The notes beneath the pieces are model-generated. The model was not told where the DNA came from. It did no database searches and worked only from the letters and a program-made list of their open reading frames with translations. The position numbers and the translations under genes are program-made. A DNA stretch of 64,000 nt from an uncultured Methanosarcinales archaeon (GTDB lineage Archaea > Nanobdellota > Nanobdellia > Woesearchaeales > DSVV01), in assembly GCA_964556185.1 (NCBI GenBank), contig CAZKVI010000003.1, forward strand, positions 2,089-66,088, in the 5' to 3' direction. Of this stretch, positions 20,145 through 48,897 are shown one piece after another (the stretch's first letter is position 1; each line of letters begins with the position of its first letter).

Positions 20145-21065
20145 TTAAGCTGCAGGTCTAGGTTGTTGTTGACGTACTGGTCGAGGTCTTGCAGCAAGAT
20201 ATGTTCCAGTAGCATCTTCTAAAGAATATGCATGAACATCTATTCTTGTTTCTATTGTTGTAGTTGCATCAGCTTCAATAATTTTTGGTCTTGATCTAGC
20301 CTTAGCAGCACAAGCCATCATCGCATCAATTGTACTATTAGCTCTTGTTGATCCATCATATTTATTGAAAGCTCTCATTGTATATTGAAGTCTTTGATCT
20401 TCCATTCTTTGTTGTATCTGTAAATCTTCTTCACGAGCAGCATCTTCTGTTTCTCTATATCTATCAACTGCTGCAACTAAAGTAGATCTATTAACTTCTC
20501 TCTTAATAGGTTGCCTTAGTGGAACTACATTAGCAGGTCTTTCTAAATACTCATCAACTGCTGTAACTATTCCTGGTTTAGTACCAGAAGCTCTCCTACT
20601 ACCTACTAAATCTCCATAAGAATAACCTGTTGCAGCCCTTGTTCTTGCTCTTTGCTTAGCAGCTGTTTGAGAATATTGTCTAACTTGAGGTTTAGCATAA
20701 CTTTTTCCACCATATGCTGAAACCATATCTGCATGACTTGGACTATTTCCATAAGCTGATCTTCCAGAACGTACAGCAGGTTTTCTTTCTGAGTCTGCAT
20801 ATGTTATAGCAGGAAGATTTGCATACCATGTTCTATATGCTTGAGCTCCAGCTATTACTGCAGCACCTACCAAAGCAAATAATGATGAAGTTTTATCAAA
20901 TCCATAAGTTAATGCTTCATTAATACCAAAAAGAACTCCACCTAATCCAGCTGCTTGAGCTGTTCTAACCATCATTTCTGTAAGTAAATCTACTTCTCCT
21001 ACTGCTGACTCAACTACATCATCTATTGTTCTAGTTATTGAGGTCATCCCATATCTATTAAACAC
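20145..21065 (-). CDS. hypothetical protein with atypical composition (Ala/Arg/Thr/Gln-rich, about 3.5% Lys) and one hydrophobic segment
   Basis: Long ORF with locally higher GC. No recognisable domain. Confidence 0.45.
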   Translation of the reverse strand: MFNRYGMTSITRTIDDVVESAVGEVDLLTEMMVRTAQAAGLGGVLFGINEALTYGFDKTSSLFALVGAAVIAGAQAYRTWYANLPAITYADSERKPAVRSGRSAYGNSPSHADMVSAYGGKSYAKPQVRQYSQTAAKQRARTRAATGYSYGDLVGSRRASGTKPGIVTAVDEYLERPANVVPLRQPIKREVNRSTLVAAVDRYRETEDAAREEDLQIQQRMEDQRLQYTMRAFNKYDGSTRANSTIDAMMACAAKARSRPKIIEADATTTIETRIDVHAYSLEDATGTYLAARPRPVRQQQPRPAA

Positions 21066-27926: not shown

Positions 27927-28235
27927 ATGCAAAAAGCAAGAATAAAGATAGCAAGTACAGACATAGACAAGATTAATAATACTTGTAGGTATATTTCTGA
28001 TATAGCTGATAAAACTGGTGTTGATATGCGTGGTCCTATTCCTTTACCAACTAAAAAATTAAAATTAACTACTCGTAAAACTCCTTGCGGAGACGGAAAA
28101 GCTTCCTGGGAAAGATACGAAATGCGAATTCATAAAAGATTCATTGATCTCGGCTTAGATGAAAGAGCTTTAAGATTGGTTATGAGGGTACCAATACCTG
28201 AAGGCTTGAACATAGAAATTGAAATGATTGATTAA
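27927..28235 (+). CDS. rps10: 30S ribosomal protein S10 (uS10)
   Basis: KARIKIASTDIDKINNTCRYI... Conserved EF1A-S10 gene order. Confidence 0.9.
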   Translation: MQKARIKIASTDIDKINNTCRYISDIADKTGVDMRGPIPLPTKKLKLTTRKTPCGDGKASWERYEMRIHKRFIDLGLDERALRLVMRVPIPEGLNIEIEMID

Positions 28236-28297: not shown

Positions 28298-28336
28298 CCT
28301 GAAGGCTTGAACATTGAGATTGAAATGATAGACTGA
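28298..28336 (+). repeat. degenerate 39-bp direct repeat of the S10 gene 3' end (about 34/39 identical to 28197-28235)
   Basis: cctgaaggcttgaacatTgaGattgaaatgatAgaCtga versus the gene end cctgaaggcttgaacatagaaattgaaatgattgattaa. The 62-bp insert between the copies holds a GAA-triloop hairpin. Confidence 0.7.
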
Positions 28337-28390
28337 TTCTACCCAAAAGCTTTTATTTGATACTTGATTTCTCTCTATTTAGGGTGCAAA

Positions 28391-28828
28391 ATGGCTAAAG
28401 TTAAGAGTAATGCAATTGGAAAACTTGAAGATGGTACTGAAGATAATAGAGCATATAATGCATTGGTTCGTCAATATGGTGTTGCATTTAAAGAATTATA
28501 TGATAATTTTCCAAGAGAACCAAAACCAAGATTAGGTCTTTATATGATGAGTATTAAAAGACCTGAAGGAGTCTTACGTCTTACACCAGGGGTTGTTGGT
28601 AGTTCATCAGATGGGATCCAGAAAAGAGTTCAAGCACATCTAGGAAAATGCTTAGATCAAATTGGATTAGATGATTTATGTATGGACGTTTTTACAGTTT
28701 CTTGTAATAGTACGAGCAGTGTTTGTGAAATAACTCCTTACACACTTGAAGCTAGAGCTTATTTAAAACATTATGGACAACAAATACTTGTTCCAGAAAT
28801 GCGAAGATTAAGATCTCAATCAAAATAA
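28391..28828 (+). CDS. hypothetical protein
   Basis: ORF with internal ATG start (MAKVKSN). No recognised domain. Confidence 0.3.
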   Translation: MAKVKSNAIGKLEDGTEDNRAYNALVRQYGVAFKELYDNFPREPKPRLGLYMMSIKRPEGVLRLTPGVVGSSSDGIQKRVQAHLGKCLDQIGLDDLCMDVFTVSCNSTSSVCEITPYTLEARAYLKHYGQQILVPEMRRLRSQSK

Positions 28829-29236: not shown

Positions 29237-29356
29237 CGGGCCCACGGGGATTCGAACCCCGGGCCTATGGCTGTCTGTGCGTAAGCAAAGACCCAGTGGA
29301 TCTTTGATCCTAACGCGTAAGAGGCCACCGCTCTAACCAGGCTGAGCTATGAGCCC
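29237..29356 (-). tRNA. tRNA-Lys(CUU) with about 45-nt intron after position 37
   Basis: Manual fold: GGGCTCA/TGGGCCC acceptor, GCTC/GAGC D-stem, GTGGC/GCCAT anticodon stem, loop CU-CUU-A, T-arm CGGGG-TTCGAAT-CCCCG, discriminator G. Confidence 0.7.
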
Positions 29357-29443
29357 ATAAAGGGCTTGACTGACCAAAGGGAAGGAAACCCTTCTTGCGT
29401 GTCGACCGAGCGTAACCAGTCGCCACGGGTGAGATTGAGCCCA
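29357..29443 (-). ncRNA. GC-rich structured segment immediately 5' of tRNA-Lys; also begins GGGCUCA; identity unknown
   Basis: Local GC above 50% with stems (AAGGG...CCCTT). No T-arm, so not called as a tRNA. Confidence 0.2.
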
Positions 29444-29485: not shown

Positions 29486-30367
29486 TTATCCTTGATAAAA
29501 ACCAATTAACTGTCTTTGTCTCTTAACATGTCTTAATTTTCTTAAGGCTTTTACTTCGATTTGTCTTATTCTTTCTCTTGTTAAATCAAATACTTGACCA
29601 ATCTCTTCAAGAGAATAATGACGAGGATGATCAATTCCATATCTCATTTTCATAACTTTTTCTTCTCTGGGTGTTAATTCAGCAAGTACACTTCTAACAG
29701 CCTTTGCTAAATCAGAATCCCCTACATTTTCATCAGGTCTTCGAACACTAGCTCCTTCTATAAAATCACCTATGGTTGCATCTGATTCATCACCAACTTT
29801 TTGCTCTAATGATAATGGTTCTCTTGCAAGCCTATAAATATCTTCAATTTTTTCAACTGGTTCACCTAACCAATCTGCAATTTCTTCAGAAGTTGGTTCT
29901 CTACCAAGATCAGTAACAAGTTTTCGAGCCGTTCTTCTAACTTTAGTAACCATTTCTAATTTATAAATTGGAATTCTTATTGTTCTTACTGTAGCTTCTA
30001 TTCCTCTAATAACACTTTGTCTAATCCACCAAGAAGCATATGTAGAAAATTTATATCCTCTTCTATATTCAAATTTTTCAACAGCTCTTATTAAACCTAA
30101 ATTACCTTCTTGAATTAAATCACCAAGTGGCAAGCCTCTATATTGGTATTGTCTTGCAATACTAACAACTAGTCTTAAATTGCCTTTTATTAAATCTTCT
30201 TTAGCTGTAGCTGCTTCATAAGGAGTGCCTTCTTCCATTGTTGTAGCTAATCTAACTTCATCATCTCTAGATAATAATGCTACAGCCCCCATTTGATTCA
30301 TATACTTCCTTAGAACTCTAGGATCATCTCTATATCTTGGCCCACCTTGATAATGACTAACACCCAT
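29486..30367 (-). CDS. bacterial-type RNA polymerase sigma-70 family factor (regions 1.2, 2, 3, 4)
   Basis: Region 1.2 [28 protein letters not shown]. Region 2 [58 protein letters not shown]. Region 4 [15 protein letters not shown]...[29 protein letters not shown]. Confidence 0.8.
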
Positions 30368-30406
30368 TTCATAAGGTAATCAATAGTTACTTTTAAACCT
30401 TCCTAG

Positions 30407-31510
30407 GTGGTCTGTGTTGATTATACCCATTCTCAAGTAGTTAAAAACAGAAAGGCTTATATATGGGATAAAGTACCTTCATATATAAAGTGGGGTTTAA
30501 ATATGAGTAAAGCAAGACAGCTTATACAAAGAGCATTGGCAGCAAAAGATGATGAATTTTTTGATGGTGTTTATAGATTTAAAAGAGGAAATGTGTTTTC
30601 ACCAATCCCTATAGACACAGCTGACCATCTTGATCTTTATAGTTCTATAGTTCAGCTTTTGAGACCAAGCAGAACACCAAGAAAATCTATTGGGGCAACT
30701 CTACTTTATCTTTTCTTAGTATCTTCACAGGAGTTTTATGGTCAAGGACCTAAAAATTATACAACTTTTGGAAGAAGAGGAAGAGATCAAATGAAAGAAC
30801 AATTGGAAGCATATTGTAGTTCTATATCTGCTTTAGAAATTGTTTATCATGATAATAATACACCAGATGGAGCTAATGCAACTGTAGGTAAATTTGATGA
30901 ACATAGCACAAGACATGAATTAGAAGATTTACTAGATCTTGTTCGAACTGATGAATGGAGAGAAGGAAGAAGTTATGAAATTGTTTATGTACAATCACCA
31001 GGAGATCTTGTTAGTGAAGATGGCAGAGAAGATATTGTAGCAGGTAGTTTATCTCAAAGATTTATAGAAGGACTTAGAGTACACGAAGATTATTTTGCAA
31101 CAAATGATACATTTAGAGAAGAAGTACCTGATGAAGATTATGCACACCTTTTTGAAGGTGATGTTAGTCATAGGGAAACATATGAACTATGTGATCAATA
31201 TCTTGTAGATCACCAAGAACTTTCAGATACAACAAGAGAACATCTTGAAGGATTTAGAGCTAGAATGTTATTCATGGCATGCTCACAAGAACAAGACCCA
31301 AAGGCGGAAGCTTTCTTTGATGGATTAGTTGCCCAAGTTTTACCAGCTCTCCCAACAGAAGAGTTTTACATAAATCAACTAGCTAGAAACGTTGCACAAA
31401 CTGGCGGTGTGTTAATTCTTGAAGGATTCCAACAACAAGAAGTAGAAGGTTTCGAACTTCTCCAAGAAGATAGGAATGTTCGTTTATACACTAGAGTTGT
31501 TGAGGAATAA
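30407..31510 (+). CDS. hypothetical acidic protein (Lys-poor)
   Basis: 367-aa ORF. True start may be at MSKARQL (30503). Confidence 0.35.
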   Translation: MVCVDYTHSQVVKNRKAYIWDKVPSYIKWGLNMSKARQLIQRALAAKDDEFFDGVYRFKRGNVFSPIPIDTADHLDLYSSIVQLLRPSRTPRKSIGATLLYLFLVSSQEFYGQGPKNYTTFGRRGRDQMKEQLEAYCSSISALEIVYHDNNTPDGANATVGKFDEHSTRHELEDLLDLVRTDEWREGRSYEIVYVQSPGDLVSEDGREDIVAGSLSQRFIEGLRVHEDYFATNDTFREEVPDEDYAHLFEGDVSHRETYELCDQYLVDHQELSDTTREHLEGFRARMLFMACSQEQDPKAEAFFDGLVAQVLPALPTEEFYINQLARNVAQTGGVLILEGFQQQEVEGFELLQEDRNVRLYTRVVEE

Positions 31511-48649: not shown

Positions 48650-48763
48650 CGCTGTGGCCCGGATTTGAACCGGGATATCCCGGAGGAAACAAGCTAAACA
48701 GTGCATGCCTTGAAAATACATACATTTCCAGGCTTGCGCAGTACCAGGTTGTGCCACCACAGC
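48650..48763 (-). tRNA. tRNA-Ser(GGA) with about 30-nt anticodon-loop intron and long variable arm
   Basis: Acceptor GCTGTGG/CCACAGC, anticodon stem CAAGC/GCTTG, loop CU-GGA-A, T-arm CCCGG-TTCAAAT-CCGGG, discriminator G. Confidence 0.55.
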
Positions 48764-48772
48764 AAAAAAAGG

Positions 48773-48897
48773 TGGCAGTGGCGGGATCTGAACCCGCGGC
48801 TTCTAGATCGCCCAGATATAAAGTTTAATCATCGGCATGAGCCTCATCACTCAAATCTTATGAGTCTAGCACTCTAACCAGGCTGAGTTACACTGCC
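48773..48897 (-). tRNA. tRNA-Met/Ile2(CAU), elongator type, with 50-nt intron
   Basis: Acceptor GGCAGTG/CACTGCC, D-stem ACTC/GAGT, anticodon stem CTAGA/TCTAG, loop CU-CAU-AA, T-arm GCGGG-TTCAGAT-CCCGC. Intron contains GUGAUGA. Confidence 0.7.

What the first reader, a model, noticed from the sequence alone, without database searches (positions are those of the whole stretch)
29486..30367. Complete bacterial sigma-70 factor gene in an archaeal chromosome
The 293-aa product has recognisable sigma regions 1.2, 2.1-2.4, 3 and 4.2, including the -10 recognition helix YASWWIRQ and the -35 helix-turn-helix. It sits on the same contiguous sequence as unambiguous archaeal markers (intron-containing tRNA-Lys 130 bp away, aEF1A/S10 1.3 kb away, histone, Spt4, TFE). 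Its codon and AT content match the host, so it is not recent contamination. Archaeal RNA polymerase uses TBP/TFB/TFE and has no known sigma-binding interface, so a resident sigma factor is functionally puzzling. Possible explanations are a repurposed DNA-binding regulator, an activity aimed at a bacterial partner or host, or a relic of a mobile element inserted at tRNA-Lys.
Basis: partly seen in the sequence, partly recalled or inferred. Interest (0 to 1): 0.85.

Follow-up and report, generated by a model that had tools for sequence, protein, structure and literature searches.

The report
Bacterial sigma factor in a Woesearchaeon
A complete, intact bacterial-type sigma-70 transcription factor gene really does sit in the chromosome of a tiny DPANN archaeon (Woesearchaeota), but this oddity was already reported for that group in 2021 and what the protein does there is still unknown.

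Summary
ORF 29486-30367(-) encodes a 293-aa sigma-70-family protein: all four Pfam regions score above cut-off and the protein is RpoD-like. The contig carries a histone, Spt4, Rpo7, TFE, aEF1A/aEF2 and e-type ribosomal proteins, and the host is a Woesearchaeon. It is not a chimera, because independent assemblies with sigma 75-83% identical keep the same gene order. The gene's GC3 is 0.11, against 0.90-0.96 in its bacterial sister clade, so the transfer is old.

The four archaeal orthologues are monophyletic. They evolve fast (dN/dS 0.3-0.5, against about 0.1 for neighbouring housekeeping genes). They still keep the bacterial pattern of site constraint, including 28 of 32 residues named (from memory) as core-docking, -10 and -35 contacts.

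I found no anti-sigma factor, bacterial RNAP subunit, integrase, defence system or sigma-70 promoter enrichment. Sigma-70 genes in Woesearchaeota, with the same functional puzzle, were published by Castelle et al. 2021, so the phenomenon is already known.

My best guess, which is inferred and not shown, is an accessory regulator that still uses sigma's DNA-reading and polymerase-docking surfaces.

The parts
29486..30367 (-). Sigma-70-family gene, 293 aa, with a group-2-like architecture (regions 1.2, 2, 3, 4; no region 1.1, no non-conserved insert)
   Evidence: Only four Pfam families hit, none of them Sigma70_r1_1 or Sigma70_ner.
30227..30313 (-). Region 1.2 (aa 19-47)
   Evidence: Pfam PF00140, 34.6 bits.
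29996..30193 (-). Region 2 (aa 59-124). Contains the core-docking helix DLIQEGN and the -10 melting/recognition motif [11 protein letters not shown].
   Evidence: Pfam PF04542. The residues are invariant in the four archaeal orthologues.
29726..29947 (-). Region 3 (aa 141-214), including the poorly conserved region 3.2 finger/linker
   Evidence: Pfam PF04539. Region 3.2 is the most divergent part and has low model confidence.
29528..29689 (-). Region 4 (aa 227-280) with the -35 helix-turn-helix TRERIRQIE
   Evidence: Pfam PF04545. R584/E585/R586/R588/Q589 equivalents are invariant.
30390..30397 (-). TTTAAAAG, a TATA-box-like element at -30 to -23 from the sigma ATG, with no Shine-Dalgarno sequence. 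This suggests an archaeal promoter with a leaderless or short-leader mRNA (inferred).
   Evidence: Sequence. Conserved in all four archaeal lineages.
30368..30502 (.). 135-nt divergent intergenic region shared with the neighbour gene. It holds a 9-bp inverted repeat, TTATATATG (30457-30465) and CATATATAA (30480-30488), and a TATAAT at 30420-30425(-).
   Evidence: Identity to L003 is 87%, no higher than other intergenic regions (83-89%), so the conservation is not exceptional.
30503..31510 (+). Divergently transcribed, fast-evolving protein of unknown family (335 aa from ATG 30503). It lies next to sigma in every member of this clade. A functional link is not established.
   Evidence: The counter-example without sigma is L024.
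29237..29356 (-). tRNA-Lys(CUU) with a roughly 45-nt intron at the canonical 37/38 position. It is an archaeal context marker immediately downstream of sigma.
   Evidence: The intron-less orthologue is in L003.

Best explanation
SHOWN: this is a horizontally acquired bacterial alternative sigma-70-family gene (primary-like, group-2-type architecture). It has long been resident and vertically inherited in a narrow, roughly genus-level clade of Woesearchaeota (DPANN archaea). Its composition matches the host fully. It lies in a variable segment just downstream of the conserved aEF2-aEF1A-S10 cluster. It is kept intact by weak but significant purifying selection, and that selection still spares the same sites that are constrained in bacteria. 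INFERRED mechanism: the protein still works in a sigma-like way. Its region 4.2 helix-turn-helix and regions 2.3/2.4/3.0 read -35/-10-like DNA, and its region 2.2 and 4.1 surfaces dock on an RNA polymerase. The only polymerase known in such cells is the archaeal one, so the most likely partner is the host RNAP clamp coiled-coil, the site used by TFE and Spt4/5. That would make sigma an accessory, promoter-selective modulator of a small regulon beside TBP/TFB/TFE, and not a general initiation factor. The gene itself appears to be transcribed from an archaeal TATA-type promoter. Identity and history carry confidence above 0.9. The confidence figure given for this entry refers to the mechanism.
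For: Identity. Archaeal host: (histone, Spt4, Rpo7, TFE, e-type ribosomal proteins, aEF1A/aEF2); Woesearchaeota by aEF2. Not chimeric: the same order S10-orf148-orf138-(tRNA)-sigma-neighbour-pseudoU synthase-DUF6055 appears in independent assemblies from other samples, with sigma 75-83% identical. Old transfer: GC3 is 0.105-0.122 against 0.90-0.96 in the sister bacteria, while amino-acid composition is unchanged. Phylogeny: the four archaeal orthologues are monophyletic in 50/50 bootstraps, and the bacterial clade of about 287-aa proteins is their sister in 36/50. That clade has its own conserved bacterial synteny. Selection: dN/dS is 0.30-0.52 with bootstrap intervals of 0.20-0.71, all below 1. 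Bacterial-type constraint persists: only 21 of 132 bacterially invariant sites vary among the archaeal copies, against 87 of 161 other sites (odds ratio 0.16, p = 1e-11). All five core-docking residues of region 2.2 and all five -35 residues are invariant, and 28 of 32 named functional residues are invariant (hypergeometric p = 0.001). There is no region 1.1, the domain that auto-inhibits DNA binding in primary sigma (role of region 1.1 from established knowledge). An archaeal TATA-like box at -30 to -23 is conserved in four lineages. The clamp coiled-coil is the docking site of TFE and Spt4/5 in archaea (PMC7289017).
Against: No sigma has ever been shown to bind an archaeal RNAP. The docking residues are identical to the bacterial consensus and show no sign of re-adaptation to an archaeal surface, which fits a bacterial partner at least as well. 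Sigma-70-type -35/-10 pairs are not enriched around the locus (75 found, 88 +/- 7 expected). dN/dS is 3-5 times that of neighbouring housekeeping genes, and the archaeal copies have lost 8-11% of universally conserved residues against 0.5% in bacteria, so constraint is clearly relaxed. The gene is missing from the syntenic site in Woesearchaeota at 77-80% aEF2 identity, so it is dispensable for the group. The list of 'functional residues' comes from my knowledge of E. coli sigma-70 and was not computed from contacts here.
Confidence: 0.35

Rival explanations
1. Stand-alone DNA-binding regulator. The protein no longer touches any polymerase. It acts like the many bacterial-type helix-turn-helix regulators of archaea, binding operator-like DNA through region 4.2 (and perhaps regions 2/3) to block or assist TBP/TFB.
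For: The -35 helix is invariant. Region 1.1 is absent. Sigma region-4-type HTH domains already occur in archaeal regulators (PMC5413776). The window holds other HTH regulators (TrmB, ArsR/MarR-like). A palindromic AT-rich element lies in the promoter region sigma shares with its neighbour.
Against: If only the HTH mattered, regions 1.2, 2 and 3 should decay or be lost. Instead region 2 is the best conserved part (83% among the archaeal copies). The surface residues of helix 2.2, whose known role is core docking, are all invariant.
Confidence: 0.25
2. Nearly neutral passenger. The gene has no important role and is drifting slowly towards loss.
For: dN/dS is high for a sigma factor (0.3-0.5). 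The copies have lost 8-11% of universally conserved residues. The gene lies in a variable region flanked by fast-evolving proteins of unknown family. It is absent from the syntenic site in other Woesearchaeota.
Against: The gene is intact and full-length in at least five independently assembled lineages. All dN/dS intervals lie below 1. Substitutions avoid bacterially constrained sites (p = 1e-11). Amino-acid composition resisted a GC3 swing from about 0.9 to 0.1.
Confidence: 0.12
3. Effector aimed at a bacterial RNA polymerase. The archaeon, a presumed episymbiont, delivers sigma to a bacterial partner or competitor to redirect that organism's transcription, as phage-encoded sigma factors do.
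For: Core-docking and flap-docking residues are identical to the bacterial consensus, with no re-adaptation. The gene evolves fast, in a cluster of very fast-evolving genes (dN/dS 0.75-0.88), as host-interaction loci often do. The archaeal clade and its bacterial sister clade were recovered from adjacent run accessions (L015 SRR24302412, L014 SRR24302418). Phage families include RpoD-like sigma factors (phrog_351).
Against: No signal peptide or secretion/transfer apparatus is evident next to the gene. No bacterial host is established for this clade. The co-occurrence rests on one pair of run accessions. The region 3.2 finger, which works inside the bacterial active-site cleft, is the most diverged part.
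Confidence: 0.1
4. Relic of a mobile element (integrative element or virus) inserted at tRNA-Lys, or part of a defence system such as MZA.
For: Sigma abuts tRNA-Lys. The stretch between sigma and orf138 differs among close relatives: intron-bearing tRNA plus a GC-rich element here, tRNA plus LAGLIDADG in L003-5, a second sigma plus radical SAM in L006/L022. A 35-nt duplicate of the S10 3' end marks an old rearrangement. MzaA appears among the profile hits.
Against: There is no integrase, transposase or tRNA-derived direct repeat. The IMG/VR scan found nothing. PHROGs gives only the generic sigma family, with no hits for the neighbours. The MzaA match covers only the generic sigma2-4 part (200.7 bits in PADLOC; 313 bits against a cut-off of 800 in NCBIfam), and no other Mza protein is present.
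Confidence: 0.05
5. Assembly chimera or bacterial contamination, or a bacterial-type RNAP encoded elsewhere in the genome for which this is the true sigma.
For: None for a chimera. For a hidden bacterial RNAP, the only support is that the rest of the genome is unseen.
Against: The same junctions occur in at least five independent assemblies at graded divergence. GC3 is host-like. Castelle et al. 2021 excluded mis-binning and reported the expected archaeal factors, and the paper's main text never uses the term 'RNA polymerase'. No bacterial RNAP subunit lies in the 64 kb.
Confidence: 0.03

Closest known systems
Sigma-70-family genes of DPANN archaea (fam00359 of Castelle et al. 2021, Front Microbiol, PMC8204110)
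   Same: The host phylum is the same (Woesearchaeota). Both are bacterial-type sigma-70 genes on bona fide archaeal contigs. No anti-sigma factor is found, archaeal TFE is present, and the mechanism is equally unexplained.
   Different: I could not test whether this gene was in their family set, because the supplements held no entry. New here are the sister clade, the composition shift, the rate and site-constraint analysis, and the restriction of this orthologue group to a narrow clade.
An unnamed bacterial subfamily of about 287-293-aa primary-like sigma factors (P0006-P0019 and Myxococcota/'Deltaproteobacteria' MAG proteins)
   Same: Identity is 55-69% over the full length. The architecture is the same (regions 1.2-4.2, no 1.1). 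The subfamily signatures YASWWIRQS(I/V)I (Ile in place of E. coli T440) and IPIYKLE (Tyr in place of H455) are shared.
   Different: The bacterial members sit in 64-70% GC genomes with conserved bacterial synteny (TatAC, ExbBD, DivIC, GGDEF, PF10023) and GC3 of 0.90-0.96. They keep 99.5% of universally conserved positions, against 89-92% in the archaeal copies.
Bacterial primary sigma factors RpoD/SigA (group 1) and RpoS/SigB (group 2)
   Same: The sigma2-sigma4 sequence and fold match (296 bits to RpoD, 243 to M. tuberculosis SigB, 207 to RpoS; Foldseek probability 1.0). Equivalents of D403, Q406, E407, N409, Y430, W433, W434, Q437, R441, E458, R584, E585, R588 and Q589 are conserved.
   Different: Region 1.1 and the non-conserved insert are absent. 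The protein scores below every NCBIfam equivalog cut-off: RpoD 377 against 555, RpoD_Cterm 313 against 354, RpoS 266 against 379. The host has no bacterial core enzyme in view.
Archaeal initiation factors TFB and TFE
   Same: Sigma is functionally analogous to TBP/TFB, and TFE docks on the clamp coiled-coil, the homologue of sigma's docking site (PMC7289017). TFE is encoded in this window.
   Different: There is no detectable homology to the sigma protein here. These are the canonical factors and sigma is an add-on.
Phage-encoded sigma factors (e.g. phrog_351) and the MZA defence-system sigma MzaA
   Same: They share the sigma2-4 module. They offer a precedent for a sigma that acts on someone else's polymerase.
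   Different: There is no viral or defence context. The MzaA N-terminal 430 residues and its partner proteins are absent.

Membership tests
Sigma-70 family (superfamily level) | Regions 2 and 4 are present and score above curated cut-offs | tested here: met
   PF04542 scores 71.1 bits (cut-off 24) and PF04545 scores 68.9 (cut-off 24.1). TIGR02937 scores 118.1 (cut-off 42.9).
Sigma-70 family (superfamily level) | Sigma fold, with helical sigma2, sigma3 and sigma4 domains | tested here: met
   In the AF2 model the domains have pLDDT of 70-90. The top 50 Foldseek PDB hits are all sigma chains, mostly in RNAP holoenzyme or initiation complexes, with E down to 8e-18.
Group 1 (primary RpoD/SigA) | N-terminal region 1.1, and a score at or above the RpoD equivalog cut-off | tested here: not met
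   There is no Sigma70_r1_1 hit, and only 18 residues precede region 1.2. NF004208 scores 377 against 555, and TIGR02393 scores 313 against 354.
Group 2 (primary-like alternative sigma) | Regions 1.2, 2, 3 and 4 with RpoD-like -10/-35 determinants, and no requirement for region 1.1 or the insert | tested here: met
   Dispensability is consistent with absence from the syntenic site in related genomes.
RpoS equivalog | Score at or above the TIGR02394 / NF004207 cut-off | tested here: not met
   266.3 against 378.7, and 261.1 against 394.
Functional bacterial sigma factor | Binds bacterial core RNAP and directs promoter-specific initiation | not testable with these tools
   Only indirect evidence: docking and DNA-contact residues are conserved. 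No bacterial core genes lie in the window.
Functional bacterial sigma factor | Cognate -35/-10 promoters are present in the genome | tested here: not met
   75 consensus-like sites in 20 kb, against 88.1 +/- 7.3 in shuffles. The test has low power, because the genome is AT-rich and this subfamily's specificity is unknown.
DPANN sigma-70 genes (Castelle et al. 2021) | A sigma-70-family gene on a contig whose co-encoded marker proteins are archaeal (DPANN) | tested here: met
   Synteny in independent assemblies is shown.
DPANN sigma-70 genes (Castelle et al. 2021) | Membership of their protein family fam00359 | not testable with these tools
   The family model is not available, and the held supplements contain no entry.
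MZA anti-phage system (MzaA) | A roughly 700-aa protein with a long N-terminal part, and the partner genes MzaB-E | tested here: not met
   The match is confined to profile positions 430-668 of 683. The NCBIfam score is 313 against 800. No neighbour has a PADLOC hit.
Integrative element at a tRNA gene | An integrase, plus direct repeats derived from the tRNA 3' end that bracket the cargo | tested here: not met
   No integrase domain appears among the neighbours. No tRNA-derived repeat was found in 27.8-36 kb.

The most novel reading that the evidence does not exclude
The sigma factor is retained because it still docks on an RNA polymerase across the domain boundary. In the most radical version it is an effector that the episymbiotic archaeon uses on the bacterial RNA polymerase of a partner or competitor. 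That would explain why its core-docking and flap-docking residues remain identical to the bacterial consensus, with no re-adaptation, while the rest of the protein and the adjacent genes of unknown family evolve quickly. The milder version is a first case of a sigma factor working with an archaeal RNAP clamp beside TBP/TFB/TFE. That is my best explanation and would also be without precedent.
Probability: 0.1. Interest if true: 0.9.

Novelty: already known. Interest (0 to 1): 0.4.

Why it matters
Sigma factors are a hallmark of bacterial transcription initiation, while archaea use TBP/TFB/TFE. A sigma gene kept under selection in an archaeon, with its polymerase-docking and promoter-reading residues intact, could mean one of three things: these surfaces can be re-used on the archaeal machinery, the protein is used against bacteria, or bacterial parts can be domesticated as ordinary regulators. 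Each outcome says something about how modular the two transcription systems are, and about how DPANN genomes assimilate bacterial genes. The occurrence itself is published. What this analysis adds is evidence that the bacterial pattern of constraint persists long after transfer, which sharpens the question and points to a simple experiment: which RNAP, if any, does the protein bind?

Tried and rejected
The host was identified through aEF2 instead.

(2) Naming the bacterial sister lineage failed. Cluster look-ups of sigma and ten flanking proteins returned no organism names. It is described only as a 64-70% GC lineage with TatAC/ExbBD, whose nearest named relatives are Myxococcota/'Deltaproteobacteria' MAGs.

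(3) Co-transfer of the bacterial upstream gene (PF10023 aminopeptidase, 367 aa) as the archaeal 367-aa neighbour is rejected: BLASTP E = 0.11.

(4) The neighbour as an anti-sigma factor or obligate partner is not supported. It has no Pfam, NCBIfam, PADLOC or PHROG hit. Its AF2 model has pLDDT 54 and no fold match (best E = 0.58). An exhaustive profile search found 21 representatives. The one informative remote context (L024) has no sigma, and the last look-up gave a contig with no flanks.

(5) The conserved sigma-neighbour intergenic region looked special, but its 87% identity equals that of other intergenic regions. The conserved TATAAT at -58 has no usable -35 partner (my reading).

(6) Sigma-70-type promoters are not enriched.

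(7) The viral-contig scan found nothing.

(8) The AT-codon-restricted motif scan of metagenomes found one more clade member (L022). The other hits were unrelated low-GC sigma genes. The two with enough flanking sequence (L020, L021) sit in bacterial contexts; L019 and L023 were too short to judge.

(9) The second sigma in L006/L022 is only 47% identical to the window protein, with altered -35 residues. NJ places it outside the clade, but long-branch attraction cannot be excluded, so 'duplication or second transfer' stays open.

(10) NG86 dS is probably underestimated at GC3 of about 0.1. I therefore use dN/dS only relative to neighbouring genes of the same two genomes.
Full report
OBSERVATION. 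The ORF at 29486-30367 on the minus strand exists and encodes 293 aa. It matches Pfam Sigma70_r1_2, r2, r3 and r4, each well above its gathering score. It hits no other family, so region 1.1 and the non-conserved insert of primary sigma factors are absent. NCBIfam ranks RpoD models first, but the protein is below every equivalog cut-off (RpoD 377 against 555, RpoD_Cterm 313 against 354, RpoS 266 against 379). It passes only the superfamily model. Against solved structures the best matches are RpoD/SigA chains (E = 3e-87), ahead of M. tuberculosis SigB and RpoS. The alignment to E. coli sigma-70 spans equal lengths (query 51-290 against residues 371-610), and both motif anchors fit an offset of 320. 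An AlphaFold model built on 18 homologues has confident sigma2, sigma3 and sigma4 domains and a disordered 3.2 linker. Foldseek returns only sigma chains, mostly from holoenzyme or initiation complexes. The 293-aa start is right and the 271-aa product in one public record (P0002) is too short: residues 11-22 ([12 protein letters not shown]) are conserved in archaeal and bacterial homologues, and a stop codon lies just upstream in L015.

THE CONTIG IS ARCHAEAL AND THE JUNCTION IS REAL. Pfam confirms an archaeal histone, Spt4, Rpo7/E', S24e, L7Ae, S28e, L24e, aEF2, P0/P1, aEF1A, S10 and TFE-alpha in the window. Rfam finds a tRNA at 29237-29356(-), 129 nt from the sigma stop codon. It is tRNA-Lys(CUU) with about 45 extra nucleotides in the anticodon loop, and its orthologue in L003 is an ordinary 75-nt tRNA. 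The nearest named aEF2 relatives are Candidatus Woesearchaeota (about 77% identity). Independent assemblies from other samples carry sigma orthologues of 75% (L003-L005), 79% (L006, L022) and 83% (L015) identity in the same order: aEF2, aEF1A, S10, orf148, orf138, sigma, a divergent gene of unknown family, pseudouridine synthase, DUF6055. A chimera cannot be reproduced at graded divergence in different samples. The gene's GC3 is 0.105, inside the host range of 0.08-0.22.

ORIGIN. Among 5.8 billion proteins the hits fall into tiers: the archaeal orthologues (75-83%), then a set of about 287-aa proteins at 64-69%, then a plateau at or below 62% that includes MAG proteins labelled Myxococcota, Deltaproteobacteria and Alphaproteobacteria. 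Three members of the 64-69% tier sit in 68-70% GC contigs that share a clearly bacterial neighbourhood (TatA/TatC, ExbB/ExbD, DivIC, GAF-GGDEF, PF10023 aminopeptidase, sigma, PKD protein). In a neighbour-joining tree the four archaeal orthologues are monophyletic (50/50 bootstraps), the bacterial tier is monophyletic (50/50), and the two are sisters (36/50). Sigma GC3 is 0.90-0.96 in the sister bacteria and 0.105-0.122 in the archaea, while FYMINK and GARP amino-acid fractions are essentially the same. I infer that synonymous sites have turned over completely since the transfer while the protein was held in place. I could not put a name on the sister lineage. Woesearchaeota with 80% and 77% aEF2 identity keep the L7Ae-S28e-L24e-NDK-aEF2...aEF1A-S10 backbone but have other genes downstream of S10 and no sigma there. 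So this orthologue group at this site is confined to a narrow clade. The rest of those genomes was not seen.

HOW IT EVOLVES. The window organism and the L003/L004 organism are very close (aEF1A 97.4%, aEF2 95.8%, S28e 100% identical; dN/dS 0.00-0.13). Their sigma proteins are only 75% identical, with dN/dS 0.52. Across all six pairs of archaeal orthologues dN/dS is 0.30-0.52, and the bootstrap intervals of the three window pairs run from 0.20 to 0.71, all below 1. The flanking genes of unknown family are faster still (neighbour 0.88, orf148 0.75), while the interleaved orf138 and the pseudouridine synthase are at about 0.15. Of 132 positions that are at least 95% conserved in 113 bacterial relatives, the archaeal copies keep 117-121. 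Bacteria keep 99.5% on average, with a minimum of 95.5%. Most archaeal losses are conservative substitutions, and divergence is greatest in the region 3.2 finger/linker. Constraint is therefore relaxed, but it still has the bacterial shape. Only 21 of 132 bacterially invariant sites vary among the archaeal copies, against 87 of 161 other sites (odds ratio 0.16, p = 1e-11; Spearman correlation of site entropies 0.43). I named 32 residues from established knowledge of E. coli sigma-70: core docking in 2.2 (D403, Q406, E407, N409, M413); melting and -10 contacts in 2.3/2.4; the extended -10 residues in 3.0; the flap-docking MRFGI in 4.1; the -35 residues R584, E585, R586, R588 and Q589; and the activator patch. 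Of these, 28 are invariant in all four archaeal copies (hypergeometric p = 0.001). The subfamily as a whole carries Ile at the T440 position and Tyr at the H455 position, in bacteria too, so its -10/-12 specificity may differ from TATAAT.

WHAT IS AROUND IT. The 135-nt region upstream of sigma is shared with a divergently transcribed gene (probable start ATG 30503). TTTAAAAG lies at -30 to -23 from the sigma ATG with no Shine-Dalgarno sequence, and it is conserved in all four lineages. I read this as an archaeal TATA box driving a leaderless or short-leader mRNA (inference). The intergenic region is 87% identical to L003, no more than other intergenic regions (83-89%), so I draw nothing from its conservation. 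The neighbour is next to sigma in every clade member and has invariant FDEHSTRHEL and SYEIVY.QSPGDLVS blocks. It matches no Pfam, NCBIfam, PADLOC or PHROG profile, folds with low confidence (pLDDT 54) and has no structural match. A word-indexed search found only the clade's own four clusters. An exhaustive profile search found 21 representatives among 1.84 billion proteins. The closest remote one lies beside Dus and an integrase/TIR cluster with no sigma (L024). A sigma-partner relationship is therefore not established. Nowhere in the 64 kb is there an anti-sigma domain, a second sigma or a bacterial RNAP subunit. Sigma-70-type -35/-10 pairs are not enriched (75 found, 88.1 +/- 7.3 expected). 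There is no integrase or tRNA-derived repeat, no relative in IMG/VR, and only a generic match to the sigma module of MzaA.

WHAT IS KNOWN. Castelle et al. [quoted passage not shown] They ruled out mis-binning through the phylogeny of co-encoded proteins, found no anti-sigma factor, and concluded that with TBP, TFB and TFE present the controlling mechanism 'remains unclear'. Four full-text searches found no later functional study. The finding is thus a correct rediscovery of a published and still unexplained phenomenon. Archaeal initiation uses TBP, TFB and TFE, and the clamp coiled-coil is where TFE and Spt4/5 dock (PMC7289017). Sigma region-4-type HTH domains already serve in archaeal regulators (PMC5413776).

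MECHANISM. Shown: identity, host, authenticity, age, vertical inheritance, relaxed but real purifying selection, and persistence of bacterial-type site constraints. Inferred: because substitutions avoid the surfaces that dock on RNAP and read -10/-35 DNA, the protein probably still does sigma-like biochemistry. I rank the options as follows:
- Docking on the host's own archaeal RNAP as an accessory promoter-selective factor: 0.35.
- Stand-alone DNA-binding regulator: 0.25.
- Nearly neutral passenger: 0.12.
- Effector acting on a bacterial partner's RNAP: 0.10.
- Mobile-element or defence-system relic: 0.05.
- Chimera or hidden bacterial RNAP: 0.03.
The main argument against my first choice is that the docking residues are unchanged from the bacterial consensus. 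One would expect them to change if they had been re-fitted to an archaeal surface. That same fact keeps the effector reading alive. None of this can be settled without binding assays or complex prediction.

VERDICT. The phenomenon is already known, so interest is moderate: the oddity is real and unexplained but published, and what I add is descriptive evolutionary evidence and not a mechanism.

Noticed in passing
window 29237-29356 (-); L003 7060-7134: tRNA-Lys(CUU) carries a roughly 45-nt intron in the window but is intron-less (75 nt) in a relative whose aEF1A is 97% identical. This is an intron presence/absence polymorphism between very close Woesearchaeota. ARAGORN, as run here, missed the intron-bearing gene.
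   Followed up: partly
L003 7096-7833 (-), also L004 and L005: A free-standing LAGLIDADG_3 homing-endonuclease ORF (245 aa) sits between tRNA-Lys and orf138 in these relatives and is absent from the window. Its 3' end overlaps the tRNA on the opposite strand.
   Followed up: no
L006 2264-3154; L022 1632-2522: One sister lineage has a second sigma-70 gene (296 aa) directly downstream of the orthologue. It is only 47% identical, with a changed -35 helix (SGSRIHQ in place of TRERIRQ) and host-like GC3 (0.195). It is followed by a radical-SAM gene where tRNA-Lys would be. Whether it arose by duplication or a second transfer is unresolved.
   Followed up: partly
window 29360-29441 (-): A GC-rich element of about 82 nt lies between the sigma stop codon and tRNA-Lys in a 31% GC genome. 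It folds into a closed multi-stem structure (-30.7 kcal/mol, z = -2.6, 1 of 200 shuffles as good). It has no Rfam match and is absent from L003, where the spacer is only 45 nt.
   Followed up: partly
window 28197-28231 and 28298-28332: A 35-nt direct repeat (91% identical) duplicates the 3' end of the S10 gene 101 nt downstream, and it is also present in L003. It looks like a rearrangement scar, at exactly the point where synteny with more distant Woesearchaeota ends.
   Followed up: partly
window 28382-28828 (+) and 30503-31510 (+): Two genes of unknown family flanking the sigma/tRNA block evolve almost neutrally between near-identical genomes (56% and 51% protein identity; dN/dS 0.75 and 0.88). 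Interleaved genes sit at about 0.15.
   Followed up: partly
window 30457-30465 and 30480-30488: A perfect 9-bp inverted repeat, TTATATATG / CATATATAA, with a 14-nt spacer lies upstream of the neighbour gene and is conserved in four lineages. It could be a pair of TATA boxes or an operator.
   Followed up: no
window 48650-48763 (-) and 48773-48897 (-): Two more over-long tRNA hits (114 and 125 nt) lie side by side. They are presumably intron-containing as well, and ARAGORN missed both.
   Followed up: no
L024 (same sample as L016): The closest remote homologue of the neighbour protein lies next to a tyrosine-integrase gene, a TIR-domain protein and an SDH-family protease, which looks like an integrated element or defence island in a related archaeon.
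   Followed up: no
L014 (SRR24302418) and L015 (SRR24302412): A member of the bacterial sister clade and a member of the archaeal clade were assembled from adjacent run accessions, so both lineages may share a habitat. This was not examined further.
   Followed up: no
window 20145-21065 (-): A 306-aa ORF with no Pfam match has an unusual composition (GC2 0.51, GC3 0.08) and is rich in Ala, Arg and Gln.
   Followed up: no
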